Shown: positions 15,324 through 27,646 of the stretch, piece after piece
Layout of the letters: every line of letters starts with the position of its first letter
Numbering within the stretch: the stretch's first letter is position 1
Origin: a virus
Lineage: Duplodnaviria; Caudoviricetes
Length of the DNA: 64,000 nt
Strand: one strand, 5' to 3'
IMG/VR virus record: IMGVR_UViG_3300010356_000998
Span: 32,001-96,000 of that record
Notes under the pieces: model-generated
Seen by the model: only the letters and a program-made list of their open reading frames with translations
The model's database searches: none
What the model was told of the DNA's origin: nothing
Made by a program: the position numbers and the translations under genes

Positions 15324-16515
15324 AATTTTTTATAAAATCTTGCATTGTATTATAAGTTTTAAATTTTAAACCAGTGGCTTCTATAATTTTGTTTAACCAA
15401 GTTTCTTCTTGAGTACCTCTTGTACAAAATATAATTACATTACCTTTTTCTGGTCTATTTCTTAATCTACCTACTCTTTGAATAAAATCTTTTTCTACTC
15501 CATAGTAAGAATGAAGTATTACAGTATCTAAATTATCAAGATTAATTCCTTGCTTTAACATTTTAAAAGAACCTATTACGTTAATTTTACCTTCATTAAA
15601 ATCTTTAATGATTTGTAAATTAACATCTTTAATTCTTTTACTAGATACTGTTGGGCATATTTTAACTAATTCTGTAATACTATTAGCAAATACAATAGTT
15701 CTTTTTAAATCTATTGCTTTTAATAGAGATATTACAGATTCTGTTTTAGAAGGTAAATTATATAATATTTCATTACGTTTTCTCATCCAGTATTGTTTTA
15801 AAAAATCTGAATCAGAAAACATACATTTTATAAATCTTTGATGACAATAAGAATAATAATCTTTTTCAGTTTGATAAAAAGTTTTTTTAACACCTGTTGT
15901 TTTATCTTTATAATCAACGGGTATTATTTTCTTTTTATCATCTAGTTCTGTAATTATTACACTTATTTCAAGTTCTCTGGCAGTTTTATCTTCCTGTCCT
16001 TGTTTAATATTGTAAGAAAAACATATAGGCGCTATTTTATTTAATAATGTTATTTTAGTTATTTCTTCACCATCTATTTCAAAAGTACTTTTTTTATCTA
16101 TTGTAGCAGATAAGCCGATCAAATGATTAAATTTGTTATTTTCGTAATATTTGAAATATTGAGGTGTTAATGAATCATGTATTTCATCAGCAACTACCAT
16201 ATCATAAAAAGTACTTATCCATTTATAAGCACTTTGATAACATGCAAACGTTACTGAATGATTTGCTAAAATATCATAATTAAATACTTCTTTAAACTTA
16301 GCTATATCTTTTCTAATATCTAATTCTCTTAAATTAGTTTCAGCTAAAAATAAAATAGATTTTGGCTTTAGTTCTTTTATCATCATTAATGAAATAAAAG
16401 TTTTACCAATACCTGTAATAGCTTCTATAGTACCTCTTACATTACCATTAATTTTACTATTTAACAGTGATTGAACTGCCTTATTTTGTATATCATTTCT
16501 GTCAATACTAATCAA
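15307..16515 (-). CDS. Superfamily 2 helicase
   Basis: TGIGKT, DEIH, GLSAT, GINL, QRVGRL motifs. Confidence 0.9.
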   Translation of the reverse strand: MISIDRNDIQNKAVQSLLNSKINGNVRGTIEAITGIGKTFISLMMIKELKPKSILFLAETNLRELDIRKDIAKFKEVFNYDILANHSVTFACYQSAYKWISTFYDMVVADEIHDSLTPQYFKYYENNKFNHLIGLSATIDKKSTFEIDGEEITKITLLNKIAPICFSYNIKQGQEDKTARELEISVIITELDDKKKIIPVDYKDKTTGVKKTFYQTEKDYYSYCHQRFIKCMFSDSDFLKQYWMRKRNEILYNLPSKTESVISLLKAIDLKRTIVFANSITELVKICPTVSSKRIKDVNLQIIKDFNEGKINVIGSFKMLKQGINLDNLDTVILHSYYGVEKDFIQRVGRLRNRPEKGNVIIFCTRGTQEETWLNKIIEATGLKFKTYNTMQDFIKNYVRKN

Positions 16516-16753
16516 TGTTTTTTATTACTCCAATAACGATCGCACGTTTGTGAAGTGGCAACTTAATATGTTGCGTTTCATTATTATCATTAAATCTTTT
16601 TACATTGACTAACGTAACATGATGTTTCATTGCAGGAATTCCTACATTTTCTTCCCAAAATACAAGAGGTAGATCTTTTAAATCTACCCCTTGATTTTTA
16701 ATATCTGTCAGTAATTTAAGTAATTCTTCAGCTGTAACCATAGTTATCCACAT
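16508..16753 (-). CDS. Small hypothetical protein
   Basis: ORF bridging the end of nrdJ and the start of the helicase. Confidence 0.55.
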   Translation of the reverse strand: MWITMVTAEELLKLLTDIKNQGVDLKDLPLVFWEENVGIPAMKHHVTLVNVKRFNDNNETQHIKLPLHKRAIVIGVIKNID

Positions 16754-19700
16754 TTAGATGATCCACATTCTTTACATACAGCACACCCTTCTTCAAATAC
16801 AACCGATTTAGATCCACAGTCTAAGCATGATACTGTACTGTTTGTTCCATCAGGAATATATGCTTTAAGTGTTCTTGCTATAGCTTTTGTAAATGAATGT
16901 AACTCACCATCGGTTTTTTGTAATTGCTCAACAATAAAGCGTATTTCTGCGCCATGTCGTAAAGCAGTTGAAATAAGTCTGGTAATAGCTTCTTGTTCAT
17001 CAGTCATCATATAAGCTAATTGATGATATTTACTATTATCAATTATTACGTTATATTTTCCTTTACTTTTTTTAGAAATAATACCTTTACTATAACCTTC
17101 TAATATAAGTTCTGGTACAGCAAATACTTCGTAAGGCTTGTTATCTAATAAACCAACAATAACTGTAAAACCATTACCCTTTACTTTTAAGTGTTTAATA
17201 TCACATTCTAAATCAATAGGTCTTTTAGGTGCGTTTCTTTGTTCAAAAGTATTATTTTTAGTAGTATCTGTTACTAAAACACCTGTCCTACTACCATCTC
17301 TATATACAGTAACTCCTTTAAGATTTGCATCAAAAGCAGTCATATATATAATATCTACTTCTTCAGTAGAAATTTCATTTGGTAGATTAATTGTACTACT
17401 TCATATTTGTCTCATATTTCTATGAGTATGGACTATATCATATTCCTTAATAAAGGAACTCGGACGCTGATACGGTATTACTCATCACGCTTGATGAACC
17501 CGTTAGTCTCTGCACCTTCACTACAAGATCGTGTAGTGCTTGGCTCAATGTTAGCATGATTATTTGCTATTTCTCTGCATAGTTGTAAAAAGTCACTATT
17601 AGTCATATTGTTTTTCATTGTATTAACTCTTTTTGTGACCCACTGGACATTATCTTTAACATACCCTTTATCGGAATTTATTCTATCTAAAGAACACGTG
17701 TGCTTTACTCTATCTTCTTTATTATTAAATTTTGTATTCATTAATAATTCTCTTTGTGTATAAGCACATTTACCATTTTGATTATTCCACAATTCTTCCA
17801 AATATTCTGGTGTAAGATCAAATTCAAAACCTCTTAATTTAGCGTTTCTCTCAATAACTTTAAAATAAGTTAATGAAAGATTATTAGTTAACATTGTATT
17901 TCTTTTAGGTTTTTTTAAATTAGTATTAAAACAGTTATTACAATAAGAAAGTCCTTCCCCTTTACATTTTCTAGTTAATGTGGTATGACCTGTTCTGTAA
18001 ATATGGCCACAATCACATTGTACTTTATAAATAGTATTTCCTTTTTGAAGACCTTCACATTTCAATACTGTTAAATTTTGTACTTTGAATCCGTCAAAAT
18101 AAGTTTTTTTGTCTTTCCATCGCAATTTTCCAGAACACGAACGACATGATTTTGAAAACCCGTTTCGATTAATATAATGTTTTCCAAAAATATATTCTTT
18201 ATCACAAGTACATTTTAATACAAAATGATCTCTACCATTTTCTTTAAATGGTTCTGATACAACTGTCCAGTTGTTTACTTTACTTCCAATTTCTAAATTT
18301 CTTTGCATATTTTATGTATTTTTATTACACAAAGATAATTAAAAATTGATTACTTCAACAGATAACTTACATTTAATTTTAGCCTTCTTTGAATTCATCC
18401 GATTTTCGATACACATTACTGTGTAAAGGCACAAGTTTTTATGCTGTGAGTAGTATATTTTTGAATAATAGATTGAATAAATACTCTATTTTGCCAGTTA
18501 ATATCATTAGCTATTGAACCATACCAAGGAGACATTTTAAAACGTGCTTCTAATTCAGACTTTGGCATCATTTCTATAGAATACGATAATGGATCTGGAG
18601 CAGTTTTATTAATTTGAATTTGAAGCCAATCTTTAAATTTAGGATGAAGTACAGGATATTCCATCCAGTTATCTCCATTTTGATCTGTAAAATCTACTCT
18701 AACACCTGTTTCACCCGGATTAACTTTTTTACGACGCATGTAATATGGTGCAAATAAAGGTTCTAATCCAGAAGTTGTTTGTGTTAAAATACTTACAGAA
18801 CCAGTTGGAGCTACTGTAGACCATGATACATTACGACGTCCCCATTTTATCATTTTTAAAACTTTAAAATAAAAGTTTTCTACTAAAAATTGATAAAATT
18901 CATTACGTCCACTAATAATATCACCATCTATTTTAAATTCACTTTCAGCATCCCAATCTTTAAATGAACCCCTTAATATAGATAAATCAATACTACAATC
19001 TAGTTCTCCTGACATTTTAGTTTGCATCACTCTTTCAATAGTTTCCATAGCTTCTTTAGAATCATATTTTAATCCTAAAGCTGCTAACATATCACCTAAA
19101 GCAGTGAAACCACTACCCGTTCTTCTAGAACTTTCAGCAATATATCTTATATTTTGCCAAAGTTCTAATTCAGTACGTTTAACTGAATCATTTTCAGGAT
19201 CTTGATTGATTTTATCGATAATTCTATCAATGTGTTCTAATTCAAGATCAATTAAATTATCAGCTAATCGTTGTTGTTCATACGCCATTTTATAAAGACT
19301 TTCGTAATCTATTTGAGCATCTTTAGTAAATGGGTTCTTTACAAAGGAATAAAAATTAAGTGCTAATAAACGACAAGCATCATAAGCACTCATGAAAATT
19401 TCTCCACCTTTTTATCTACACTTTATTAATCATGTTTTTAAATTCATTATAATAATCTTTTTCTGTCCACAATTCATTCTTTTTAATTTTTTTAATGTTA
19501 GTACCATTATAATAAAAAATACCTTCTTGTGCAGGATACGAACAAATACACCTTATTGAAGAATTGTTAATACGACTTTTAAATTCTTCAACTGTAATTA
19601 ATTTAGGAAAGGTATCAATTGCAGTTTTTCCATAGTAATTATTCAAAAAACAATGATTAACATTTACTTTTTCAATATCTAACATTAAATTATGACAAAA

Positions 19701-21486
19701 TAAAAATACTTGTAAAGAATCTTCGTTTTTAAATAAATCTTTTTCTATTAATTCTAAAAATAAATTGTATACATCAAAATATGAATCATCAGAGTTATCA
19801 TTAGTATGTTTAGGACTTACAAAATAACCTTCATAAGCAAATCTAATAAACATACCTAATAAAGTTAATTCAATAATTTTTGAATCGTTTTTTACATGTA
19901 CTTCTATTCTTTCACAATCTTTATTATCAATAATTTCAGTTATACAATCTATGAAATTAGATTTAATAATATTTAAATATTTCATAAATTTATCATAATT
20001 TTCTATTTTAACATATTCTATTATAATTGCTACAGGATCTGCAGAAGGAACAGTATAATCATGAGCAAACGAATGAAAACAAGCTTCGTTGGTATGTGTG
20101 TTAATTTCGCCTTTTACTTTTTTAATAAAACTTGAATTGTATGACATAATAACATGATTTGAGTTATTTGTAGTTTGGACTGTATCATAAACTTGCATTA
20201 AGTTTTTCCTTGTCAGTCTCTCGCGGCTTATTGATTAAATTGTCTATGATTTCTTTTAAGATAGCTTTTTCGTCAATGTTAAAGCTATTAGTTAATGTAA
20301 GTATTCTATTTAGTTTATTTAACAATTTATATTCAATCTGTCCGACGGGATTGACCTCTCCAGGTGTTTCCCCGTTAGCCTTATTCAGACCCTCAATTTT
20401 TTGAGATTCGGAATTTTTGTTAAATGGATTATCTTGATATACAATATTTTCAAGTTTCGTAAGTCTATCATAAAGTTCTTGTATTTGTTTTTGAAAGAGT
20501 TTTTCATTTCTGTCAATTCTTTCAAATTGTTTAATATTAAATTGTTGACTCATAATCTATTTAACTTTCCATAAGTATCACTACTTACAGCCGCATGGTA
20601 TGTTTTACGGATTTGTGGTTACCCCTTTGTATTTTGGATAAACTGTATCAGGAGAATAATCCCAGTGTCTATCTACAAATAATATTCCGGGTTCTGCTGT
20701 ACTATGTGCAGCTTCTATCATCTTATCCCAAAGTTCTCGTGCTTTTATTTCTTTAGTAATAGATGGATTATCTGAATCGCAAGGCCATCTCAATGTATAA
20801 TTTGTATTTTGTTTAACAGCTTGCATAAAGTCATCTCTTACCATTACTGAAATATTAGCTCCAGTTACTTTAGTTAGATCTTTTTTAATAGTTATAAAAT
20901 GTTCAACATCAGGATGTCGAACGTCTATGCTTAACATTAAAGCACCTCTACGGCCATTTTGTGCTACTTCTCTTGTACTATTAGAAAATCTCTCCATAAA
21001 ACTAACTGCTCCTGTAGAAGTACCAGCAGCATTAGTTACAGGTGTATTATTTGGTCTCAATGTAGAAATATCAAGACCTACACCACCTCTTCTTTTCATT
21101 AACTGAACTAATTGCTCGTCTTTTTGAAGAATACCTCCATAAGAATCTTCAGGTTGCCCTACCACAAAACAGTTACTTAAAGATCCTATTTTTTTAGAAC
21201 CTAGCATTGACATTATAGATCCTTGTGGTACAACATACTTAAAGTGTTTAAACAAATCATAAATACGTTCTTCTGAAAGATATTCTCTTTCTTGTCCATA
21301 TTTACTTAATTCTGTTCTGTTTTCGGAGTTTTCTTCTTTTTCTTTGTAATTAGATTCAATTCTAGCAAATTCTTTTGCCATTCTTTTGTGCATGTCATCG
21401 GGAGTCGTTTCTCCTTCTTGAGCATACTTTCCTTGCCATACTGACATGGCTAATTCATCTTGATTAAAGTAATTGGATAATGACAT
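16744..21486 (-). CDS. nrdJ: Class II (B12-dependent) ribonucleotide reductase in three exons: 21486-20607, 19407-18441, 17401-16744 (2505 nt, 834 aa spliced)
   Basis: LSNCFV, RRGALM, APTGS, KGVTVYRDGSR and a C-terminal Zn-ribbon. Joining the exons restores TTNP-CGEIFMSAYDACRL and THSI-SSTINLP in frame. Confidence 0.92.
17478..18308 (-). CDS. Intron-encoded HNH-type homing endonuclease
   Basis: Repeated C-x-C / CxxC modules, then QNGKCAY, SLDRINSDKGYVKDNVQW..N.MK. Confidence 0.85.
   Translation of the reverse strand: MQRNLEIGSKVNNWTVVSEPFKENGRDHFVLKCTCDKEYIFGKHYINRNGFSKSCRSCSGKLRWKDKKTYFDGFKVQNLTVLKCEGLQKGNTIYKVQCDCGHIYRTGHTTLTRKCKGEGLSYCNNCFNTNLKKPKRNTMLTNNLSLTYFKVIERNAKLRGFEFDLTPEYLEELWNNQNGKCAYTQRELLMNTKFNNKEDRVKHTCSLDRINSDKGYVKDNVQWVTKRVNTMKNNMTNSDFLQLCREIANNHANIEPSTTRSCSEGAETNGFIKRDE
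18330..18358 (-). promoter_or_regulatory. Bacteroidetes sigma-70-type promoter inside intron 2, upstream of the HNH gene
   Basis: TATCTTTG (-7 consensus TAnnTTTG) at 18337-18330, with TTG 18 nt upstream and the ATG 21 nt downstream. Confidence 0.55.
19416..20198 (-). CDS. Intron-nested hypothetical protein in the P9 loop; no homing-endonuclease motif
   Basis: 260-aa ORF (alternative start MSYNSSF); EACFH, FIRFAYEG and NVNHCF motifs; no HNH, GIY-YIG or LAGLIDADG signature seen. Confidence 0.75.
   Translation of the reverse strand: MQVYDTVQTTNNSNHVIMSYNSSFIKKVKGEINTHTNEACFHSFAHDYTVPSADPVAIIIEYVKIENYDKFMKYLNIIKSNFIDCITEIIDNKDCERIEVHVKNDSKIIELTLLGMFIRFAYEGYFVSPKHTNDNSDDSYFDVYNLFLELIEKDLFKNEDSLQVFLFCHNLMLDIEKVNVNHCFLNNYYGKTAIDTFPKLITVEEFKSRINNSSIRCICSYPAQEGIFYYNGTNIKKIKKNELWTEKDYYNEFKNMINKV
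20185..20553 (-). CDS. Intron-nested 122-aa ORF reading through the ribozyme core (coiled-coil N-terminus)
   Basis: ATG after P2 behind an A-rich leader; open through P4-P8; stop overlaps the S element. Confidence 0.55.
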   Translation of the reverse strand: MSQQFNIKQFERIDRNEKLFQKQIQELYDRLTKLENIVYQDNPFNKNSESQKIEGLNKANGETPGEVNPVGQIEYKLLNKLNRILTLTNSFNIDEKAILKEIIDNLINKPRETDKEKLNASL

Positions 21487-21489
21487 ATA

Positions 21490-23337
21490 TTAAAATAAAG
21501 TAGGTTTTTTATCAAATAATGATAATTCTTCTTTTACATTTTTTATATAAAAATTGTAATTAATATCATAATTTAAAGCATTAGTATCTGTGATAGTATT
21601 CAATAGTGTTTGATACCATGCTTTACCTTTGATAGATGGGGCATTTAGATATTCACTTCTACCATCGTTATATAACTTTTTAAATACACTACCTTTATTA
21701 GAGATAATATATCTAATTGTTTTATGTAATGGTTTTTTATTTGCGTTCTTATCATATTCGTATAATTCAGCTCCTTGTCTTACTCTAATACCAAAACAAA
21801 AATCGAATATATTACTATGTTCTTTAATTGTTTTTTCTATTGGAGTGTTATATAAAAACCAGTTATAAACAGCTATTCTTTCAATTAATGATGATTTATT
21901 TTTATGTAAAGGAATATTTTCTATTTCATAAGCACCTTTACATTTAGTTTTACCATTTGTATAAACTGCGATATAGTTATTTACATCTCTAATCATCATT
22001 TTTGAATAGTATGCATATTCTAATTGAAGTTTTGTAATAGATTCCCATTCTTTACAAATATCATAATACATAGATTCATACTCTTTTTTTAATTTAAGAG
22101 TTAAACCATCTGTATTTATTTGAATAAGTGTACTATCTGGAATATTCATTAACTTTTCAGCTAACATTGTAAGCATAAGTTGACCATTTATAGTAGTTGT
22201 ATAAGTATATTTAGGATCATACAACCAACTAGTAGATTCATTACTTTTACCGTACACACTATTAGCAGCTTCTTTTAGTCCAGCAATAATAGCTTTATCC
22301 CCATCTGGTTTAGCTTTTTCAGCTAATCTTACAGCAACAATATCATTATTATAAATAGTAGCAAAATCTTCTCCTAAATGTTCAGGATATAGTTTATTTA
22401 CTACCGCAATACTTGGATATAGACTTGCTACATCAGCATCTATTATAATATAATCATCTTCTGCAGATATAATGATATTTTTTAAACTACCGTGAATACC
22501 ACCCAATCCATAATCAAATTGAAAATGTTTATAAATAGCGGATTTTGAAATAGAACTTTCAGAATTAATATTTAAATTTTTAAAATATTCTAATAATTCA
22601 TTAAATTCTTTTGATTCAAATTTAATGTAATCAAATATAATGTCTGATAATTTAATATTACTTCTATAAGTTCTTAAATCTCTTACATTCCATTTATTTA
22701 ATCCACATTTGTTAGAATATAATTCTAACATTAAATCACTTCCTATTTTTGAATTACTAGCATTTAAAAAATTTAATTTATATTTTTCTGTCAAGTTAAT
22801 TCTTAACTCTATTTCTTTTTTATTTTTATTAAATAAACTTTCAGTAGAATTAACGTCATTAATACAATATTGTATTATTTTATCAGCTTCTTCTCTATTA
22901 CTAATTGGTTTGAAAAAAGGCATGTCTTCTATGTTAGGCCAATCTATCATATACTGACACCATTTTAAACCAACTCTTCTGTTTTTATTATCTAAATGTA
23001 ATATTTTATAAATGTCAAGATTAAAAATATGAAAATCTTTTACTTTATAAGGTTTCCTATCTTGTTCTATTAAATATGTTTGAACAAAATTAAATATTTC
23101 TTCAGCTGATTTTTCAATACTCCAAATGTATTCTATAACTTGAGCATCAAAATCTAAATTATTAAATCCTCGCAATGCTTTTACTTCATTACGTAAAAAT
23201 GCCCATAGAGGCTCATAATCGTCTCTGTAAGGCGATATCTCAAACACTCTGTAATCTTCTTCGTCTTTTGCTTTAAATACAGCACAAAAGAAATTAGGTA
23301 GTGTTTCGAGGTCATACGTCCAAACTTTTTTAATCAT
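21490..23337 (-). CDS. polB: Family B DNA polymerase with 3'-5' exonuclease (crAss-like)
   Basis: YDLET, FNNLDFD, YCINDV exonuclease motifs; DVASLYPS, K...NSVYGK, NTDG polymerase motifs. Confidence 0.92.
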   Translation of the reverse strand: MIKKVWTYDLETLPNFFCAVFKAKDEEDYRVFEISPYRDDYEPLWAFLRNEVKALRGFNNLDFDAQVIEYIWSIEKSAEEIFNFVQTYLIEQDRKPYKVKDFHIFNLDIYKILHLDNKNRRVGLKWCQYMIDWPNIEDMPFFKPISNREEADKIIQYCINDVNSTESLFNKNKKEIELRINLTEKYKLNFLNASNSKIGSDLMLELYSNKCGLNKWNVRDLRTYRSNIKLSDIIFDYIKFESKEFNELLEYFKNLNINSESSISKSAIYKHFQFDYGLGGIHGSLKNIIISAEDDYIIIDADVASLYPSIAVVNKLYPEHLGEDFATIYNNDIVAVRLAEKAKPDGDKAIIAGLKEAANSVYGKSNESTSWLYDPKYTYTTTINGQLMLTMLAEKLMNIPDSTLIQINTDGLTLKLKKEYESMYYDICKEWESITKLQLEYAYYSKMMIRDVNNYIAVYTNGKTKCKGAYEIENIPLHKNKSSLIERIAVYNWFLYNTPIEKTIKEHSNIFDFCFGIRVRQGAELYEYDKNANKKPLHKTIRYIISNKGSVFKKLYNDGRSEYLNAPSIKGKAWYQTLLNTITDTNALNYDINYNFYIKNVKEELSLFDKKPTLF

Positions 23338-25081: not shown

Positions 25082-25167
25082 TACTCCGAGCGAGACTCGA
25101 ACTCGCAAGAAGCTTACGCCTCCAAGGGATTTTAAGTCCCTCGTGTATACCATTCCACCACCGGAGC
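25082..25167 (-). tRNA. tRNA-Leu(TAA)
   Basis: Cloverleaf with long variable arm; anticodon arm AGGGA-CTTAAAA-TCCCT; TTCGAGT T-loop. Confidence 0.9.
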
Positions 25168-25232
25168 GAAAAATGTCAGATTAAAACCTATAATTAGGAA
25201 ACTTCTTCTGACAAAAGTTTTATTTTTTGTAA

Positions 25233-25757
25233 TTAGTTTACATTAAAAGCATCCGCTTCTTCTTCCACTTTTGCTGGAGTAAACGCATCTGCAGCTACAG
25301 ATCCGTTATGAGTGATAAAAGTGTGCCGTGCTTCAGAAGCAGGCGTCAAAGAAACTTCACGGTAAATTGGAGACCCGTCTTTCAAAAGAACCTCATTAGT
25401 TTGAGGATTGATTTTTGGAGTTGGGTTTTTGCGAGCTGGATTTGGCGTCAAAGATTCGGTAACCTGCAATTGAAACTCAATCCCAGCTTCAGCTTCAATA
25501 TTTTCAATTGTGGGCCATTCAGCTTGCGGTTTGTTGCTATAATCAGCGTCCGTTGTTCCGAAATATTTCATTGCCTGTTCTTCGCTAAAAGAAACTACAG
25601 CGACTGCTTTTGTTTCACCCGTGATGCCTTGCGTAATTGAAAGAAGCGGATTGCTTGAACCTTTGAAAGTTTGTTGCAGCATCACATTTACTTGGTTTTT
25701 GTCAGAATTAGCGTTTGGCCAAATGCGACGTACCTGAACTTTAGAGAATGGTTTCAT
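25233..25757 (-). CDS. Conserved crAss-like protein with acidic C-terminal tail (possible ssDNA-binding protein)
   Basis: INPQTNEVLLKDGSPIYR motif; EEEADAF tail. Confidence 0.55.
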   Translation of the reverse strand: MKPFSKVQVRRIWPNANSDKNQVNVMLQQTFKGSSNPLLSITQGITGETKAVAVVSFSEEQAMKYFGTTDADYSNKPQAEWPTIENIEAEAGIEFQLQVTESLTPNPARKNPTPKINPQTNEVLLKDGSPIYREVSLTPASEARHTFITHNGSVAADAFTPAKVEEEADAFNVN

Positions 25758-25800
25758 GTGTGAAAAAGTTGAAATTGTTAAGAGTTATATGGACTGTATT

Positions 25801-26178
25801 CTATTCAGAATCTACAAATCCATATTTTTTGAGTTTTTTTGAATTTTCATAGGCGAATTCGACAATAGTTTTATTGTCTTCATAGCCTATTACCCGGAAC
25901 TTTTCTTGTTTCGGTTTAACAGTTATTCGTTTCTCTTTTTTAGAAAGAGATTTAATAAACTCTTTTTGATACTCAGCTTTAACATCTTCAGAAATATTTT
26001 CTTCTGATATTTTACTGATCAGCATTTGCTGTTTCATCAATTGAGCTGAATTTTCTTGATACTGTTGTTTAGCGATAGCATCATCATGGTTGTTTAAAAA
26101 TTTACCATTAAATACTTTCCCAACAGGTTTCAGAAAATTATTTACTATAAATTTATTATCTTTTCTATATATAATCAT
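25801..26178 (-). CDS. Hypothetical protein (MIIYRKDNK...)
   Basis: Start trimmed to ATG 26178 because the longer call overlaps tRNA-Tyr. Confidence 0.6.
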   Translation of the reverse strand: MIIYRKDNKFIVNNFLKPVGKVFNGKFLNNHDDAIAKQQYQENSAQLMKQQMLISKISEENISEDVKAEYQKEFIKSLSKKEKRITVKPKQEKFRVIGYEDNKTIVEFAYENSKKLKKYGFVDSE

Positions 26179-26192
26179 AAAATATAATTTAG

Positions 26193-26276
26193 TGCCGGTT
26201 GATGGATTCGAACCACCCGAACGATTAAGTACCTGAGTTACAGTCAGACCCGCGACCATTTACGGAATAAACCGGC
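26193..26276 (-). tRNA. tRNA-Tyr(GTA)
   Basis: GCCGGTT/AACCGGC acceptor; TCTGA-CTGTAAC-TCAGG anticodon arm; long variable region; TTCGAAT T-loop. Confidence 0.8.
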
Positions 26277-26327
26277 ATTAAAATCTTACAGTTTTTACAA
26301 CTATAAGAATTATTAATTTTGATTAAA

Positions 26328-26897
26328 CTATTTATAAATTCCTTGTGATAGTACAGTAGGGATGTATGTTACGTACATTTTACAAAATTGAGGATATAAT
26401 TCTAATAATCCTTTTAATGCTTTTTCAGCATCATATTTTGTTTCATATACGCCATAATGAGTGATCCAGTTACCATCTTGTAATTGACTTACTAAAAAAT
26501 CTTTTGGTCTATTTTTAGCTGGAGTTTTTAAATATTCAAATCTAACAGTCCAACAATTACCATAAGACATTTTTCTAACTTTAGTACCAGTTTCAATAGT
26601 ATCTACAGATAAAATTTGAATAATGTTGTAACAACCGTCAAGAATTGCATTAATACGCACTTCTTTAGTTTTTTCTACAATATCATCTTGATTTTCATAA
26701 TAATGTAATACACCTGTATATTTAGGGTGTTTTGTACTACAAATATCTGGTTTGTAGTTTTTAGGAGTTGTGATAGATACGGAATACATTGCTGGACTAG
26801 GATTTGAACTAGTTTCAACAATAGGTGGACAATATACTTGACTGTAAATATGTACAGTCTGAAGTATTGAAATAAGAATAAAAATAATCTTTTTCAT
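26328..26897 (-). CDS. Secreted protein with possible C-terminal SPOR-like domain
   Basis: Signal peptide MKKIIFILISIL; YGVYETKYDAEKALKGL motif. Confidence 0.55.
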   Translation of the reverse strand: MKKIIFILISILQTVHIYSQVYCPPIVETSSNPSPAMYSVSITTPKNYKPDICSTKHPKYTGVLHYYENQDDIVEKTKEVRINAILDGCYNIIQILSVDTIETGTKVRKMSYGNCWTVRFEYLKTPAKNRPKDFLVSQLQDGNWITHYGVYETKYDAEKALKGLLELYPQFCKMYVTYIPTVLSQGIYK

Positions 26898-26911
26898 TGT
26901 TTAATTTTTAG

Positions 26912-26984
26912 TGATCCCGACAGGGGTCGAACCTGTAGCCTACAGATTAGAAATCTGTTGCACTATCCTTTGTGCTACGGGACC
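26912..26984 (-). tRNA. tRNA-Arg(TCT)
   Basis: GGTCCCG/CGGGATC acceptor; ACAGA-TTTCTAA-TCTGT anticodon arm. Confidence 0.9.
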
Positions 26985-26991
26985 AGGTTAT

Positions 26992-27141
26992 TTAATGTTT
27001 ACAACTACCGTCACAATCTGCAACAACTTTACATCGTTTTACACAATGCCAAGTTATTTTTAACAATGGTTTACAAATACATGGAAATTGATGTCCATTA
27101 ATTGTAACCCAACCAGTATCGTCACAAAGTTTACATTTCAT
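26992..27141 (-). CDS. 49-aa Cys-rich microprotein (MKCKLCDDTGW...)
   Basis: Manual translation; 8 Cys; fills the gap between two tRNAs. Confidence 0.55.
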   Translation of the reverse strand: MKCKLCDDTGWVTINGHQFPCICKPLLKITWHCVKRCKVVADCDGSCKH

Positions 27142-27156
27142 ATAAATTTATTTTAG

Positions 27157-27229
27157 TGGGCCCAGCAGGACTTGAACCTACAACCCTCAAATTATGAGTT
27201 TGGCGCTCTACCGATTGAGCTATGGGCCC
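27157..27229 (-). tRNA. tRNA with CAT anticodon (Ile2-like acceptor)
   Basis: GGGCCCA/TGGGCCC acceptor; CTCATAA anticodon loop. Confidence 0.85.
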
Positions 27230-27272
27230 GGTGTTTTAATACACACTTTTAATTGTAATATAATATTTTTGA

Positions 27273-27370
27273 TGACACTAGCAGGAATTTAACCTACCAC
27301 AACCGCAGAAGAACTAGTATTACGTTGGTTCGCCCACATACAAATGTAGTGTTCAGGAACATGTAGTGTC
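27273..27370 (-). ncRNA. tRNA-like RNA: acceptor stem and T-arm with a non-canonical centre
   Basis: GACACTA/TAGTGTC-A acceptor; GTAGG-TTAAATT-CCTGC T-arm; no standard D or anticodon arm. Confidence 0.55.
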
Positions 27371-27376
27371 GAGTTT

Positions 27377-27646
27377 TTAATTATAGATAGATTGTAATAA
27401 TCTACCTAAAATGTGTTTGTTTTTTGGATTCCATCCGTTGATTACTCTCATGGTGGAATCAACATATAAATTCGATAATCCACGATGTATTACATGTGGC
27501 TTACTTGAATTCATAATGTTATCTATTTGTTGAGTATTTAATTCAGGTATTTCAAATTGTACATCAGCAAATGATTTATAAGCCTGTGTACAATCTTCAT
27601 AATCTGAAATAAATAATTGCGGATGCTGTTCTGGTGATATTATCAT
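27377..27646 (-). CDS. Hypothetical protein
   Basis: 89-aa ORF coupled to the upstream ORF. Confidence 0.55.
   Translation of the reverse strand: MIISPEQHPQLFISDYEDCTQAYKSFADVQFEIPELNTQQIDNIMNSSKPHVIHRGLSNLYVDSTMRVINGWNPKNKHILGRLLQSIYN

What the first reader, a model, noticed from the sequence alone, without database searches (positions are those of the whole stretch)
19408..20606. Group I intron in the RNR active-site codon carries cargo genes instead of a homing endonuclease
Seen: nrdJ exon 1 ends AAT CCG T|AA and exon 2 begins G|GT GGA GAA ATT, so removing 19408-20606 rebuilds the TGT codon of the NPCGE motif. The 1199-nt insert has a U.G P1 (CCGU/GCGG), a GNRA-capped P2, P4, P5, P6, P7 (GACUG/CAGUC), P8, P10 and a terminal G. 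A P9 stem (CUACA near 20170, UGUAG near 19416) encloses nearly all of a 260-aa ORF. That ORF shows no HNH, GIY-YIG or LAGLIDADG motif and reads like an ordinary phage accessory protein (EACFH, FIRFAYEG, NVNHCF). Known: the Cys of NPCGE is the thiyl-radical residue, and ORFs in phage group I introns are almost always homing endonucleases. Inference: this intron acts as a self-removing shelter for passenger genes inside an essential gene. Caveat: I could not assign a clean P3.
Basis: partly seen in the sequence, partly recalled or inferred. Interest (0 to 1): 0.88.

Follow-up and report, generated by a model that had tools for sequence, protein, structure and literature searches.

The report
ORF-filled group I intron in nrdJ
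A self-splicing-type (group I) intron splits the catalytic cysteine codon of a phage ribonucleotide reductase gene. Unusually, almost all of it is protein-coding, including a reading frame across the ribozyme core and a gene of an unknown, intron-restricted family where a homing endonuclease would normally sit.

Summary
Removing 19408-20606 (minus strand) rebuilds the TGT codon of NPCGE. With a second intron (17402-18440) also removed, nrdJ reads as 834 codons without a stop, colinear with an uninterrupted phage NrdJ.

Rfam never detects this insert. Eight diverged copies at the same site in related uncultured phages still show a full group I core (P1, P10, P2-P9, terminal G). Of 394 pair cells, 393 are canonical, with compensatory changes in every variable helix.

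ORF2 lies inside the P9 loop, and its conserved start is probably M18 at 20147. Its family has only 9 clusters in 1.84 billion proteins. Seven of the eight traced sit in this loop, one is free-standing, and one fragment was not traced. It matches no known nuclease family or fold, and it is acidic.

ORF1 reads through P3-P8. That frame stays open in all seven complete variants.

The "cargo" reading is partly supported, and a new homing-endonuclease family is not excluded (about 25%). No RNA evidence could be obtained.

This scan had already noted ORF-less group I introns, and an intein, at this same nrdJ codon on other DNA. The site is therefore ordinary. The coding load is what is unusual.

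The parts
20607..21486 (-). nrdJ exon 1 (293 codons, ends ...GVTTNP plus the first base T of the Cys codon)
   Evidence: Pfam Ribonuc_red_lgC, E 1.6e-37. Aligns to 1xje up to P321.
19408..20606 (-). Group I intron 1 (1199 nt). It begins AAAAC and ends in G (omega G at 19408).
   Evidence: Eight homologous copies at the same site.
20591..20598 (-). Internal guide sequence CCAUGCGG. GCGG pairs with exon 1 CCGU (P1, U.G at the splice site). CCAU pairs with exon 2 GUGG (P10).
   Evidence: All 7 intron-bearing alleles read CCG T|GT GGA; 7 intron-less relatives read CCT/CCA TGY GGN.
20569..20590 (-). P2 hairpin, 9 bp, with GNRA loop GUGA
   Evidence: RNAalifold finds 3 pairs with compensatory changes, and the loop stays GNRA.
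20185..20553 (-). ORF1, 122 codons. An N-terminal coiled-coil-like module is fused to a frame that reads through P3, P4, P5, P6, P7 and P8 and stops at UGA in J8/7.
   Evidence: This frame has 2 stops, against 8 and 25 in the other two frames, and the pattern holds in 7 variants. pN/pS is 0.3-0.5 and indels are in frame. The N-terminal module is 49-58% identical to separate ORFs in L011 and L014.
20410..20413 (-). P3 5' strand UUCC
   Evidence: Pairs with GGAA at 20206-20209. Relatives have CUCU/GGAG, CUCC/GGAG, CUUU/AAAG and CUCU/AGAG.
20377..20405 (-). Two small extra hairpins between P3 and P4 (CUCAA/UUGAG and GGUCU/AGGCU). L015 lacks them. In L011, L014 and L017 the second one's loop holds large coding inserts.
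   Evidence: The first hairpin covaries (CUCCU/AGGAG in L014), read directly.
20345..20375 (-). P4 (ACGGGG/UCCCGU), J4/5 AAAC, P5 (ACCU/AGGU, loop GGAG), J5/4 CAA
   Evidence: RNAalifold finds 4 pairs with compensatory changes.
20224..20344 (-). P6 (CGG/CCG), a conserved internal loop ACAG/AAG, and an extended P6a/P6b arm
   Evidence: P6 is GGG/CCC or CAC/GUG in relatives. The arm helices differ in sequence but keep their position.
20214..20220 (-). P7 5' strand G[A]GACUG with a bulged A next to the candidate G-binding pair
   Evidence: Pairs with CAGUCC at 20177-20182. L014 has A[C]GACUG/CAGUCU and L019 has GACUA/UAGUC.
20206..20209 (-). P3 3' strand GGAA
20189..20205 (-). P8 hairpin AAACUU/AAGUUU. 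The loop holds the upstream ATG of ORF2 (20198).
   Evidence: Relatives keep the helix with other sequences and with loops of 3-131 nt.
20177..20188 (-). J8/7 AUGAUA (which contains the ORF1 stop codon UGA) and the P7 3' strand CAGUCC
20168..20173 (-). P9 5' strand CUACAA
   Evidence: Pairs with (G)UGUAG at 19416-19421. Relatives have CUACAU/AUGUAG, CUAUAA/UUAUAG, CUAUAA/UUGUAG and CUCACA/UGUGAG.
19416..20198 (-). ORF2, 260 codons from ATG 20198. The conserved start is probably M18 at 20147 (243 codons). It sits in the P9 loop, and its stop codon UAG lies inside the P9 3' strand.
   Evidence: Homologs start after the P9 5' strand. The family has 9 clusters. AF2 gives pLDDT 78 and pTM 0.82. No known family or fold was found.
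19416..19421 (-). P9 3' strand GUGUAG, followed by an 8-nt tail and omega G
   Evidence: UGUAG is conserved in different reading frames in L002/L007.
18441..19407 (-). nrdJ exon 2 (starts GT GGA GAA = (C)GE)
17402..18440 (-). Group I intron 2 (1039 nt) with HNH endonuclease ORF 18308-17478, between HSI and SSTINLP
   Evidence: Rfam RF00028 scores 46.2 bits, E 5.3e-11, on its 3' half. PHROG endonuclease/HNH families match down to E 3e-25..
16744..17401 (-). nrdJ exon 3

Best explanation
**What it is.** 19408-20606 is a genuine, evolutionarily mobile group I intron inside the thiyl-radical Cys codon of a phage class II ribonucleotide reductase gene.

**Splicing mechanism (inferred from anatomy; splicing itself was not observed).**
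- Ribosomes on exon 1 stop at the UAA formed across the 5' splice site.
- The guide sequence CCAUGCGG aligns exon 1 (CCGU, U.G wobble, P1) and exon 2 (GUGG, P10).
- A core made of P3-P8, with a bulged-A P7, binds guanosine.
- The two transesterifications, the second using the terminal G at 19408, join T to GT and restore TGT.

**What is unusual.** Almost the whole intron is coding. ORF1 starts just after P2, reads through P3-P8 and stops at the UGA in J8/7. ORF2 fills the P9 loop.

**My reading of the ORFs.** They form a translationally linked, polycistronic insert. ORF1 carries ribosomes across the structured core to ORF2. ORF2 is an acidic two-domain protein that is not a homing nuclease of any known kind. 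It rides in the intron as an intron-resident, cargo-like gene, and neither splicing nor intron retention depends on it.

**Odds.** Intron identity about 0.9. ORF2 as a non-nuclease passenger about 0.45. The stated confidence is for the whole statement.
For: **Junction and colinearity.**

**Ribozyme core.**
- Eleven helices were checked in up to 8 diverged copies (window, L007, L010, L011, L014, L015, L017, L019). Of 394 cells, 393 are canonical. Compensatory double changes occur in P2, P3, P4, P5, P6, P7, P8 and P9.
- RNAalifold independently recovers P4/P5, P2 and P7+P8, with 4, 3 and 4 compensatory pairs.
- A ninth copy (L085) adds P6 CAC/GUG and P8 CAACCU/AGGUUG.
- Exon codons fit the guide sequence only in intron-bearing alleles.
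- All copies end in G.

**Mobility.**
- 45 of 67 related viral NrdJ genes are uninterrupted at this site.
- Window versus L014: exon 2 is 82/90 identical next to the intron but 159/240 further on. Window versus intron-less L022 gives 58/90 and 158/240.

**ORF1 is coding.** One frame is open in all 7 complete variants while the other frames carry 8-51 stops. pN/pS is 0.3-0.5 and indels are in frame. The N-terminal module is conserved at protein level.

**ORF2 is not a known nuclease.**
- No hit in Pfam, PHROGs, PADLOC or a PDB profile search.
- hhalign against intron LAGLIDADG ORFs gives probability 0.1%.
- Foldseek finds nothing at E<=1e-3.
- The best VIA Z is 6.7-6.8, to the GyrA/ParC tower domain, over residues 4-106 only.
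- pI is 5.5-6.7 in 8 of 9 members.
- L011 has a separate LAGLIDADG gene between P7 and P3'.
- L010 lost ORF2 but keeps the P9 stem and ORF1.
- Relatives carry other unknown ORFs in other loops.
Against: - No Rfam RF00028 match for this intron at E<=10, even in the 595-nt ORF2-less copy.
- P3 has only 4 bp, and two extra hairpins sit between P3 and P4.
- Against the passenger reading: the ORF2 family is confined almost entirely to this one intron loop (7 of 8 traced clusters), which suits a gene that serves the intron.
- It has conserved polar residues (E44, K47, R102, E106, D143, N153, N162, N164, H165, Y172) that could form an active site.
- The co-conversion-like tract implies homing in lineages with no recognisable endonuclease.
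- The one free-standing homolog lies beside a DnaB-like helicase gene, as free-standing homing endonuclease genes often do.
- Translation through the core should compete with ribozyme folding.
Confidence: 0.45

Rival explanations
1. ORF2 is the founding member of a new homing-endonuclease family. It cuts intron-less nrdJ alleles at or near the NPCGE codons and drives the intron into them by double-strand-break repair. The intron is then a conventional selfish intron/endonuclease pair.
For: - It occupies a peripheral loop (P9), the classical position of intron endonuclease genes.
- The family is restricted to this intron and site.
- Presence/absence polymorphism of the intron, plus a co-conversion-like tract next to it.
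- ORF2 is deleted in L010, as expected in the endonuclease gain-decay-loss cycle.
- A free-standing distant homolog lies next to a DnaB-like helicase gene.
- Conserved E, K, R, D, N and H residues.
- Weak top Foldseek rows are LAGLIDADG meganucleases, and the N-terminal domain weakly resembles a DNA-contacting topoisomerase domain.
- New endonuclease families have been found before as unknown ORFs in split phage genes (PMC2677866, title and abstract).
Against: - Acidic pI (5.5-6.7) in 8 of 9 members, whereas characterised homing endonucleases are basic DNA binders (my own knowledge).
- No profile or fold match to any nuclease family.
- The LAGLIDADG rows have TM 0.18 and rmsd about 14 A, so they do not show a shared fold.
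- L011 carries a bona fide LAGLIDADG gene in the same intron, which would be redundant if ORF2 already supplied homing.
Confidence: 0.25
2. ORF1 and/or ORF2 are splicing helpers (maturase-like proteins). They bind the intron RNA and stabilise a core weakened by a 4-bp P3 and large inserts.
For: - Strict co-occurrence of both ORFs with this particular ribozyme.
- An atypical core that Rfam cannot recognise.
- ORF1 is kept open in every variant.
Against: - L010 lacks ORF2 yet keeps an intact intron in an essential gene.
- L085 has the same core with different ORFs, and no ORF across P5'-P8.
- An acidic protein is a poor RNA binder.
- No RNA-binding domain was detected.
- Maturases are not known for phage group I introns (my own knowledge).
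Confidence: 0.08
3. The ORFs are decaying remnants with no present function, kept open by chance or by RNA-level constraint.
For: The invariant residues of the core-spanning ORF are exactly those encoded by conserved helices (GETPEVDN.VGQ and KP.ETDKEKP). ORF2 was lost in L010.
Against: - In a 30% GC genome, one frame stays open over 386-1281 nt in 7 variants while the other frames hold 8-51 stops.
- ORF2 homologs at 23-41% identity keep full length and eleven conserved polar residues.
- The ORF1 N-terminal module is conserved where no helix is assigned.
Confidence: 0.05
4. There is no splicing. nrdJ is a gene in pieces (like Aeh1 nrdA split by mobE), and its fragments assemble without being joined.
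For: Exon 2 has an in-frame ATG (19393) preceded by GGTGGAG, which resembles a ribosome-binding site.
Against: - Neither fragment would contain the essential Cys, because its codon is split T|GT.
- GEIFM upstream of that ATG is conserved NrdJ sequence in uninterrupted relatives.
- A covarying ribozyme core would have no reason to exist.
Confidence: 0.02

Closest known systems
Group I introns in phage ribonucleotide reductase genes (T4 nrdB and nrdD/sunY, Twort nrdE, SPbeta bnrdE/F), as summarised in PMC3653736
   Same: A self-splicing-type intron placed at a highly conserved, functionally critical codon of an RNR gene. It has a peripheral-loop ORF, sits in a gene with several introns, and is present or absent among relatives.
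   Different: - The host gene is nrdJ, at the thiyl-radical Cys codon.
- The ORF in the loop belongs to no known endonuclease family.
- A second ORF reads through P3-P8.
- Rfam RF00028 does not detect it.
ORF-less group I introns at the same nrdJ Cys codon, noted earlier in this scan on other viral DNA (e1-3261946, e1-5358645, e1-3183677, e1-5769743)
   Same: The same insertion site inside or next to the Cys codon of NPCGE in viral class II RNR.
   Different: Those are 174-273 nt and carry no ORF. This one is 1199 nt and about 95% coding. I could not compare their cores with this one, so homology is untested.
Inteins at the NP|C site of RNR ("intron-intein coincidence"; PMC2677866 and PMC3653736 discuss RNR inteins)
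   Same: The same codon is occupied by inteins in related viral contigs (L024, L033-36, L046/47, L058, L084).
   Different: An intein is translated in frame and excised as protein. Here a stop codon forms at the junction, and removal must happen at the RNA level.
IStrons (a group I intron joined to an IS605/IS607 element with TnpA/TnpB; PMC10690162)
   Same: A group I intron whose ORFs are not classical homing endonucleases, and where the RNA's other roles compete with splicing.
   Different: No transposase or TnpB domain is present here. The element stays at one homing-type site in a phage gene rather than transposing.
Fungal mitochondrial group I introns with ORFs that extend into core helices
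   Same: A reading frame overlaps catalytic-core sequence (my own knowledge, not tested here).
   Different: Those ORFs are LAGLIDADG or GIY-YIG endonucleases or maturases, often fused in frame to the upstream exon. Here the frame starts inside the intron, matches no family, and is followed by a second gene.

Membership tests
Group I intron | 5' exon ends in U, paired as a U.G wobble in P1 with an internal guide sequence; P10 pairs with the 3' exon | tested here: met
   CCGU/GCGG and CCAU/GUGG give 8 contiguous pairs with the ligated exons. This is conserved in 7 copies. Intron-less alleles use other synonymous codons.
Group I intron | Terminal G (omega G) at the 3' splice site | tested here: met
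   G at 19408. All 9 copies with a 3' end finish in G.
Group I intron | Conserved core P3-P8 in the order P3, P4, P5, P5', P4', P6, P6', P7, P3', P8, P8', P7', with a P3/P7 pseudoknot supported by covariation | tested here: met
   (393 of 394 cells paired, with compensatory changes in each helix). RNAalifold.
Group I intron | P7 with a bulged nucleotide next to the G-C pair of the guanosine-binding site, and an A-rich J4/5, J5/4 and J8/7 | tested here: met
   G[A]GACUG/CAGUCC, with A[C]GACUG/CAGUCU in L014. J4/5 is AAAC, J5/4 is CAA and J8/7 is AUGAUA. The analogy to the Tetrahymena bulged-A P7 comes from my own knowledge.
Group I intron | Recognition by the Rfam covariance model RF00028 (a detection aid, not a defining property) | tested here: inconclusive
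   No match at E<=10 for intron 1 or for the 595-nt copy in L010. Intron 2 of the same gene scores 46.2 bits once its ORF is left out. Large inserts between P2/P3, P3/P4 and in P6 may explain the miss.
Group I intron | Guanosine-dependent self-splicing, or a ligated exon junction in RNA | not testable with these tools
Known homing endonuclease families (HNH, GIY-YIG, LAGLIDADG, PD-(D/E)xK, EDxHD, His-Cys box) - ORF2 | Match to the family's sequence profile or motif | tested here: not met
   No Pfam hit at E<=1 in any of 9 members. No relevant PHROG. hhalign against three intron LAGLIDADG ORFs gives probability 0.1%. The PDB profile search found nothing relevant.
Known homing endonuclease families - ORF2 | The family's fold | tested here: inconclusive
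   AF2 model with pLDDT 78. Foldseek's best rows are LAGLIDADG meganucleases at E 0.06-0.4 and TM 0.18. VIA's best Z is 6.7-6.8, to the GyrA/ParC tower domain, over residues 4-106 only. The C-terminal domain, which holds the conserved N-x-N-H, was barely tested.
Homing endonuclease (function) - ORF2 | Site-specific cleavage of the intron-less allele | not testable with these tools
   This needs a biochemical assay.
Intein | An in-frame insert without stops, with N-terminal Cys/Ser and C-terminal HN followed by Cys | tested here: not met
   TAA lies at the junction, and three frames are used inside the insert. True inteins at this site occur in other contigs.
IStron | IS605/IS607 TnpA and/or TnpB encoded 3' of the ribozyme | tested here: not met
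   No transposase or TnpB domain in ORF1, ORF2 or their homologs.

The most novel reading that the evidence does not exclude
A phage group I intron lineage serves as a polycistronic gene cassette. Its peripheral loops, and even its catalytic core, are translated. The long-retained P9-loop gene (the ORF2 family) is not a nuclease but a passenger, expressed by ribosomes relayed across the ribozyme by ORF1. Splicing and translation of the same RNA would then be mutually exclusive and balanced. On this reading the intron is a vehicle for accessory genes inside an essential gene rather than just a homing element.
Probability: 0.35. Interest if true: 0.8.

Novelty: new variant of a known kind. Interest (0 to 1): 0.6.

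Why it matters
Group I introns at critical codons of phage RNR genes are textbook, and this codon is a recurrent target of both introns and inteins. That part is ordinary.

Three things would interest a specialist:

- **A translated ribozyme core.** The frame across the catalytic core stays open in every close relative. This sets up a direct conflict between translation and RNA folding that can be tested.
- **A new intron-bound protein family.** It is conserved, sits where the homing endonuclease should be, and matches no known nuclease family or fold. It is either a new endonuclease family or a rare case of a non-mobility gene maintained long-term inside a bacterial-virus group I intron.
- **A detection gap.** Rfam misses the intron completely, so introns of this ORF-laden type are probably under-annotated in phage metagenomes, and the split genes may be called pseudogenes.

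Tried and rejected
- **Rfam.** Searches at the gathering threshold and at E<=10 were run on the whole window, on 16500-21700, on 20140-20640 and on the ORF2-less copy L010:1000-1650. None gave a group I hit for intron 1. I did not take this as evidence against an intron, because intron 2 also became visible only when its ORF was left out.
- **DNA similarity to annotated phages.** Nothing significant for the intron. tblastn of ORF2 against 50,697 phage records found no match. A 20-nt core pattern in viral contigs found no match. The ORF2 peptide-pattern scan of viral contigs found none.
- **ESM Atlas.** Nothing usable, either by features or by shape.
- **First AF2 run, with 2 sequences.** Too poor to use (pLDDT 44).
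- **LAGLIDADG hint from Foldseek.** Not upheld by TM/rmsd or by profile-profile comparison.
- **PADLOC defence models.** No hit for ORF1, ORF2 or homologs.
- **Promoter and terminator scan.** Counts match the shuffles, and there is no terminator inside the introns.
- **Rejected helix assignments.**
  - GUCUG/CGGAC enclosing P4-P5. It competes with P6 and has a G.G mismatch in L011 and L014.
  - GGCU/AGCC. It is invariant and also competes with P6.
  - An inner P6 stem, AUGAUU/AAUUAU, seen only in L010.

Full report
**1. The gene and the junctions**

The window is part of a 108,742-bp, 30% GC single-contig genome. On the minus strand, a class II ribonucleotide reductase gene appears as three ORF pieces (Pfam).

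Exon 1 ends AAT CCG T at 20607, and the next two bases complete a TAA stop. After 1199 nt the sequence reads ...AUAAAAAG | GT GGA GAA ATT TTC. Thermotoga maritima NrdJ (1xje) aligns to exon 1 up to ...STNP321 and to exon 2 from G323. The only residue encoded by neither piece is therefore Cys322, the thiyl-radical cysteine. Removing 19408-20606 rebuilds exactly one TGT codon.

A second insert, 17402-18440, lies between HSI and SSTINLP. With both removed, the gene is 2505 nt and 834 codons with no internal stop. The product is 53% identical to, and colinear with, the uninterrupted NrdJ of Leptolyngbya phage Lbo-JY46 across both junctions. A "gene in pieces" without RNA joining cannot work here, because no fragment would contain the cysteine.

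**2. Is insert 1 a group I intron?**

Rfam gives nothing for it at any threshold tried. By contrast, the 3' half of insert 2 scores 46.2 bits (E 5e-11) against RF00028, and insert 2 carries an HNH ORF. I therefore looked for relatives.

*Copies found.* Homologs of ORF1 and ORF2 led to the same insert at the same codon in other metagenomic phage contigs:
- L007/L008/L009 and L002, about 90% identical.
- L010, where ORF2 is deleted down to 8 N-terminal and 5 C-terminal codons, leaving a 595-nt insert.
- The more distant L011, L014, L015, L017 and L019.
- L085, found through NrdJ itself.

*Helix check.* Anchoring on conserved motifs, I extracted eleven helices from up to eight copies. Of 394 helix cells, 393 are canonical pairs. 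Every helix that varies does so by compensatory changes:

| Helix | Window | Relatives |
|---|---|---|
| P2 | GUAAGUA/UACUUAU | GUACAGA/UCUGUAU, GUACAUA/UAUGUAU, GUAUAGA/UCUAUAU; loop stays GNRA |
| P3 | UUCC/GGAA | CUCU/GGAG, CUCC/GGAG, CUUU/AAAG, CUCU/AGAG |
| P4 | ACGGGG/UCCCGU | ACGGUG/UACCGU, UCGGUG/UACCGA |
| P5 | ACCU/AGGU | UCCA/UGGA |
| P6 | CGG/CCG | GGG/CCC; CAC/GUG in L085 |
| P7 | G[A]GACUG/CAGUCC | A[C]GACUG/CAGUCU, GACUA/UAGUC |
| P8 | 6 bp | 6-9 bp of differing sequence around loops of 3-131 nt |
| P9 | CUACAA/GUGUAG | CUACAU/AUGUAG, CUAUAA/UUAUAG, CUCACA/UGUGAG |

RNAalifold, run blind on three contiguous sub-regions, recovers P4/P5, P2 and P7 enclosing P8, with 4, 3 and 4 compensatory pairs.

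*Splice-site features.* The guide sequence CCAUGCGG pairs with the ligated exons CCGU|GUGG over 8 contiguous pairs. All seven intron-bearing alleles use CCG T|GT GGA, whereas seven intron-less relatives use CCT or CCA, TGC or TGT, and GGT/GGA/GGG. All copies end in G.

It is UUCC (20413-20410) with GGAA (20206-20209). It is short, at 4 bp. In the window it is separated from P4 by two small hairpins that L015 lacks.

I conclude that this is a group I intron (about 0.9). The Rfam miss is most simply explained by long inserts between P2 and P3, between P3 and P4, and in P6. One search gives window coordinates for all elements.

**3. Mobility**

Among 67 viral-contig NrdJ relatives at 42-69% identity:
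- 45 are uninterrupted at NPCxE.
- One (L085) has this intron.
- At least nine carry inteins at the same Cys.

Between the window and L014, the first 90 nt of exon 2 are 82/90 identical, but the next 240 nt only 159/240. For intron-less L022 the figures are 58/90 and 158/240. The amino acids there are conserved in all of them, so the excess identity lies at synonymous sites. That is what a co-conversion tract left by homing, or a recombination tract around the intron, would look like. The comparison assumes no gaps and involves few sequences, so I treat it as suggestive.

**4. ORF2**

In every relative the homolog starts after the P9 5' strand. The conserved start in the window is therefore M18 (ATG 20147). 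The annotated ATG at 20198 lies in the P8 loop, behind an AAGGA that is part of P3'. The stop codon UAG lies inside the P9 3' strand. In L007 the same UGUAG is read in another frame, which marks it as an RNA element.

*Family size and context.* An exhaustive HMMER profile search of 1.84 billion cluster representatives found nine clusters.
- Seven of the eight traced are in this intron loop.
- The most distant, P0012, is a tightly packed free-standing gene just upstream of a DnaB-like helicase gene.
- One fragment, P0011, was not traced.

*Searches for a known family.* None of the following gives a match: Pfam, PHROGs, PADLOC, a PDB profile search, tblastn against phage records, and the ESM Atlas.

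*Structure.* With nine sequences, AF2 gives a usable model (pLDDT 78, pTM 0.82).
- Foldseek finds nothing at E<=1e-3. Its weak top rows are LAGLIDADG meganucleases, but with TM 0.18 and rmsd about 14 A. hhalign against three LAGLIDADG ORFs from these same introns gives probability 0.1%.
- VIA-align's best match is the GyrA/ParC tower domain, at Z 6.7-6.8 and rmsd 2.6-4.4 A over 74-84 residues, covering residues 4-106 only. That is within the range the tool calls common.
- The C-terminal domain holds the conserved D143, N153, N162, N164, H165 and Y172.

*Charge.* The family is acidic (pI 5.5-6.7 in 8 of 9).

*Weighing the two readings.*
- For a nuclease: loop position, restriction to the intron, the tract in section 3, loss in L010, the free-standing homolog, and conserved polar residues.
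- Against: the charge, the lack of any nuclease signature, and the separate LAGLIDADG gene that L011 carries between P7 and P3' of the same intron.
- My odds: non-nuclease intron-resident gene 0.45, new homing endonuclease 0.25, splicing helper 0.08, decaying remnant 0.05, other 0.15-0.2.

**5. ORF1**

It starts 15 nt after P2, reads through P3, the two extra hairpins, P4, P5, the P6 arm, P7, P3' and P8, and stops at the UGA inside J8/7.

*Evidence that it is coding.*
- In the window its frame has 2 stops over 386 nt, against 8 and 25 in the other frames. In all seven complete variants one frame, or a chain of ATGA-overlapping ORFs, is open from P2 to J8/7 while the other frames hold 8-51 stops.
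- Indels among close variants are multiples of three, including a 99-nt insert in the P8 loop.
- pN/pS is 0.3-0.5.
- The N-terminal module (NIxQFERIxxNE) is 49-58% identical to separate first ORFs in L011 and L014.

The window's ORF1 is therefore a fusion of that module with the core-spanning ORF. The fusion arose by loss of the insert that L011, L014 and L017 carry in the second extra hairpin.

The invariant residues of the core-spanning part are exactly those encoded by conserved helices. Part of its apparent conservation is therefore RNA-level.

L085 has no ORF across P5'-P8. Core translation is thus a trait of the ORF2-bearing clade, not of the whole intron family.

*Inference, not shown.* The ORFs form a relay: exon 1 stop, ORF1, ORF2, then the in-frame ATG of exon 2. 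This relay carries ribosomes through the structured RNA and expresses ORF2. It should compete with ribozyme folding, so the balance between translation and splicing may be regulated.

**6. Comparison with what is known, and novelty**

- Introns at critical RNR codons in phages are well known (PMC3653736).
- This scan had already recorded ORF-less group I introns of 174-273 nt, and an intein, at this same nrdJ codon in other genomes. The site itself is ordinary.
- IStrons show that group I introns can carry ORFs that are not classical endonucleases (PMC10690162), but no transposase or TnpB is present here.
- What is new is the variant: an about 95% coding phage group I intron, with a conserved frame across its catalytic core and an intron-restricted protein family of unknown fold in P9.

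I rate it a new variant of a known kind, interest 0.6. No RNA data could be obtained, so splicing remains inferred.

Noticed in passing
window 17402-18440 (minus strand): A second group I intron in the same nrdJ, between HSI and SSTINLP, with a 276-codon HNH endonuclease ORF (18308-17478). Rfam finds it only when the ORF is left out (46.2 bits, below the gathering score of 50).
   Followed up: partly
window 18403-18459: The exon 2/intron 2 boundary is 89-94% identical over 45-62 nt to Staphylococcus Twort-like phages (ON814135, OP263969, OP940114). This may be a shared intron 5' module. The Staphylococcus context is unannotated or hypothetical.
   Followed up: no
L024, L033-L036, L046, L047, L058, L084 (viral contigs): Related phage nrdJ genes carry inteins at exactly the same Cys (NP|C...HN|CGE). 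Intron and intein use the same site in sister lineages.
   Followed up: partly
L007:1465-8716, L008, L015, L017: In relatives nrdJ is broken by up to four inserts. One holds a NUMOD4 ORF, one holds three or four unknown ORFs (54, 198, 173 and 85 aa), and one holds a LAGLIDADG_2 ORF. The set of introns differs from phage to phage.
   Followed up: no
L085:6564-8462: A more distant copy of the same intron has P3 only about 5 nt after P2. It carries three different ORFs: 235 aa in the second extra hairpin, 169 aa in the P5 loop, and more than 144 aa in P9. The last matches Pfam DUF6501 (E 1e-5).
   Followed up: partly
L011:4320-4964: A LAGLIDADG_2 gene is inserted between P7 and P3', the position of P7.1/P7.2 in IA introns. 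It lies in the same intron that also keeps an ORF2 homolog.
   Followed up: partly
window 20237-20262 versus L011, L014 and L017 upstream of P4: A near-identical 25-30 nt motif (GAAAUCAUAGAYMAUUUAAAUCA) lies in the 3' arm of P6 in the window, but just before P4 in L011, L014 and L017. In both places it encodes (K/N)EIID(N/H)L. This is unexplained; it may be a duplicated module.
   Followed up: no
window 16663-16693 (minus strand): A strong intrinsic-terminator-like hairpin (14 bp followed by a T run) lies about 50 nt after the nrdJ stop. There is none inside either intron.
   Followed up: no
window 21490-23337 (minus strand): A 615-codon ORF directly upstream of nrdJ has no Pfam hit. It is conserved in the same position in relatives (L003, L008), so it is an unassigned large protein in a replication-type neighbourhood.
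   Followed up: no
window 25082-32044 (minus strand): Eight tRNA genes were found by Rfam. One (28729-28789) matches only positions 6-65 of the model. Earlier notes of this scan mention a Ro60/TROVE gene and odd tRNA-like RNAs here.
   Followed up: no
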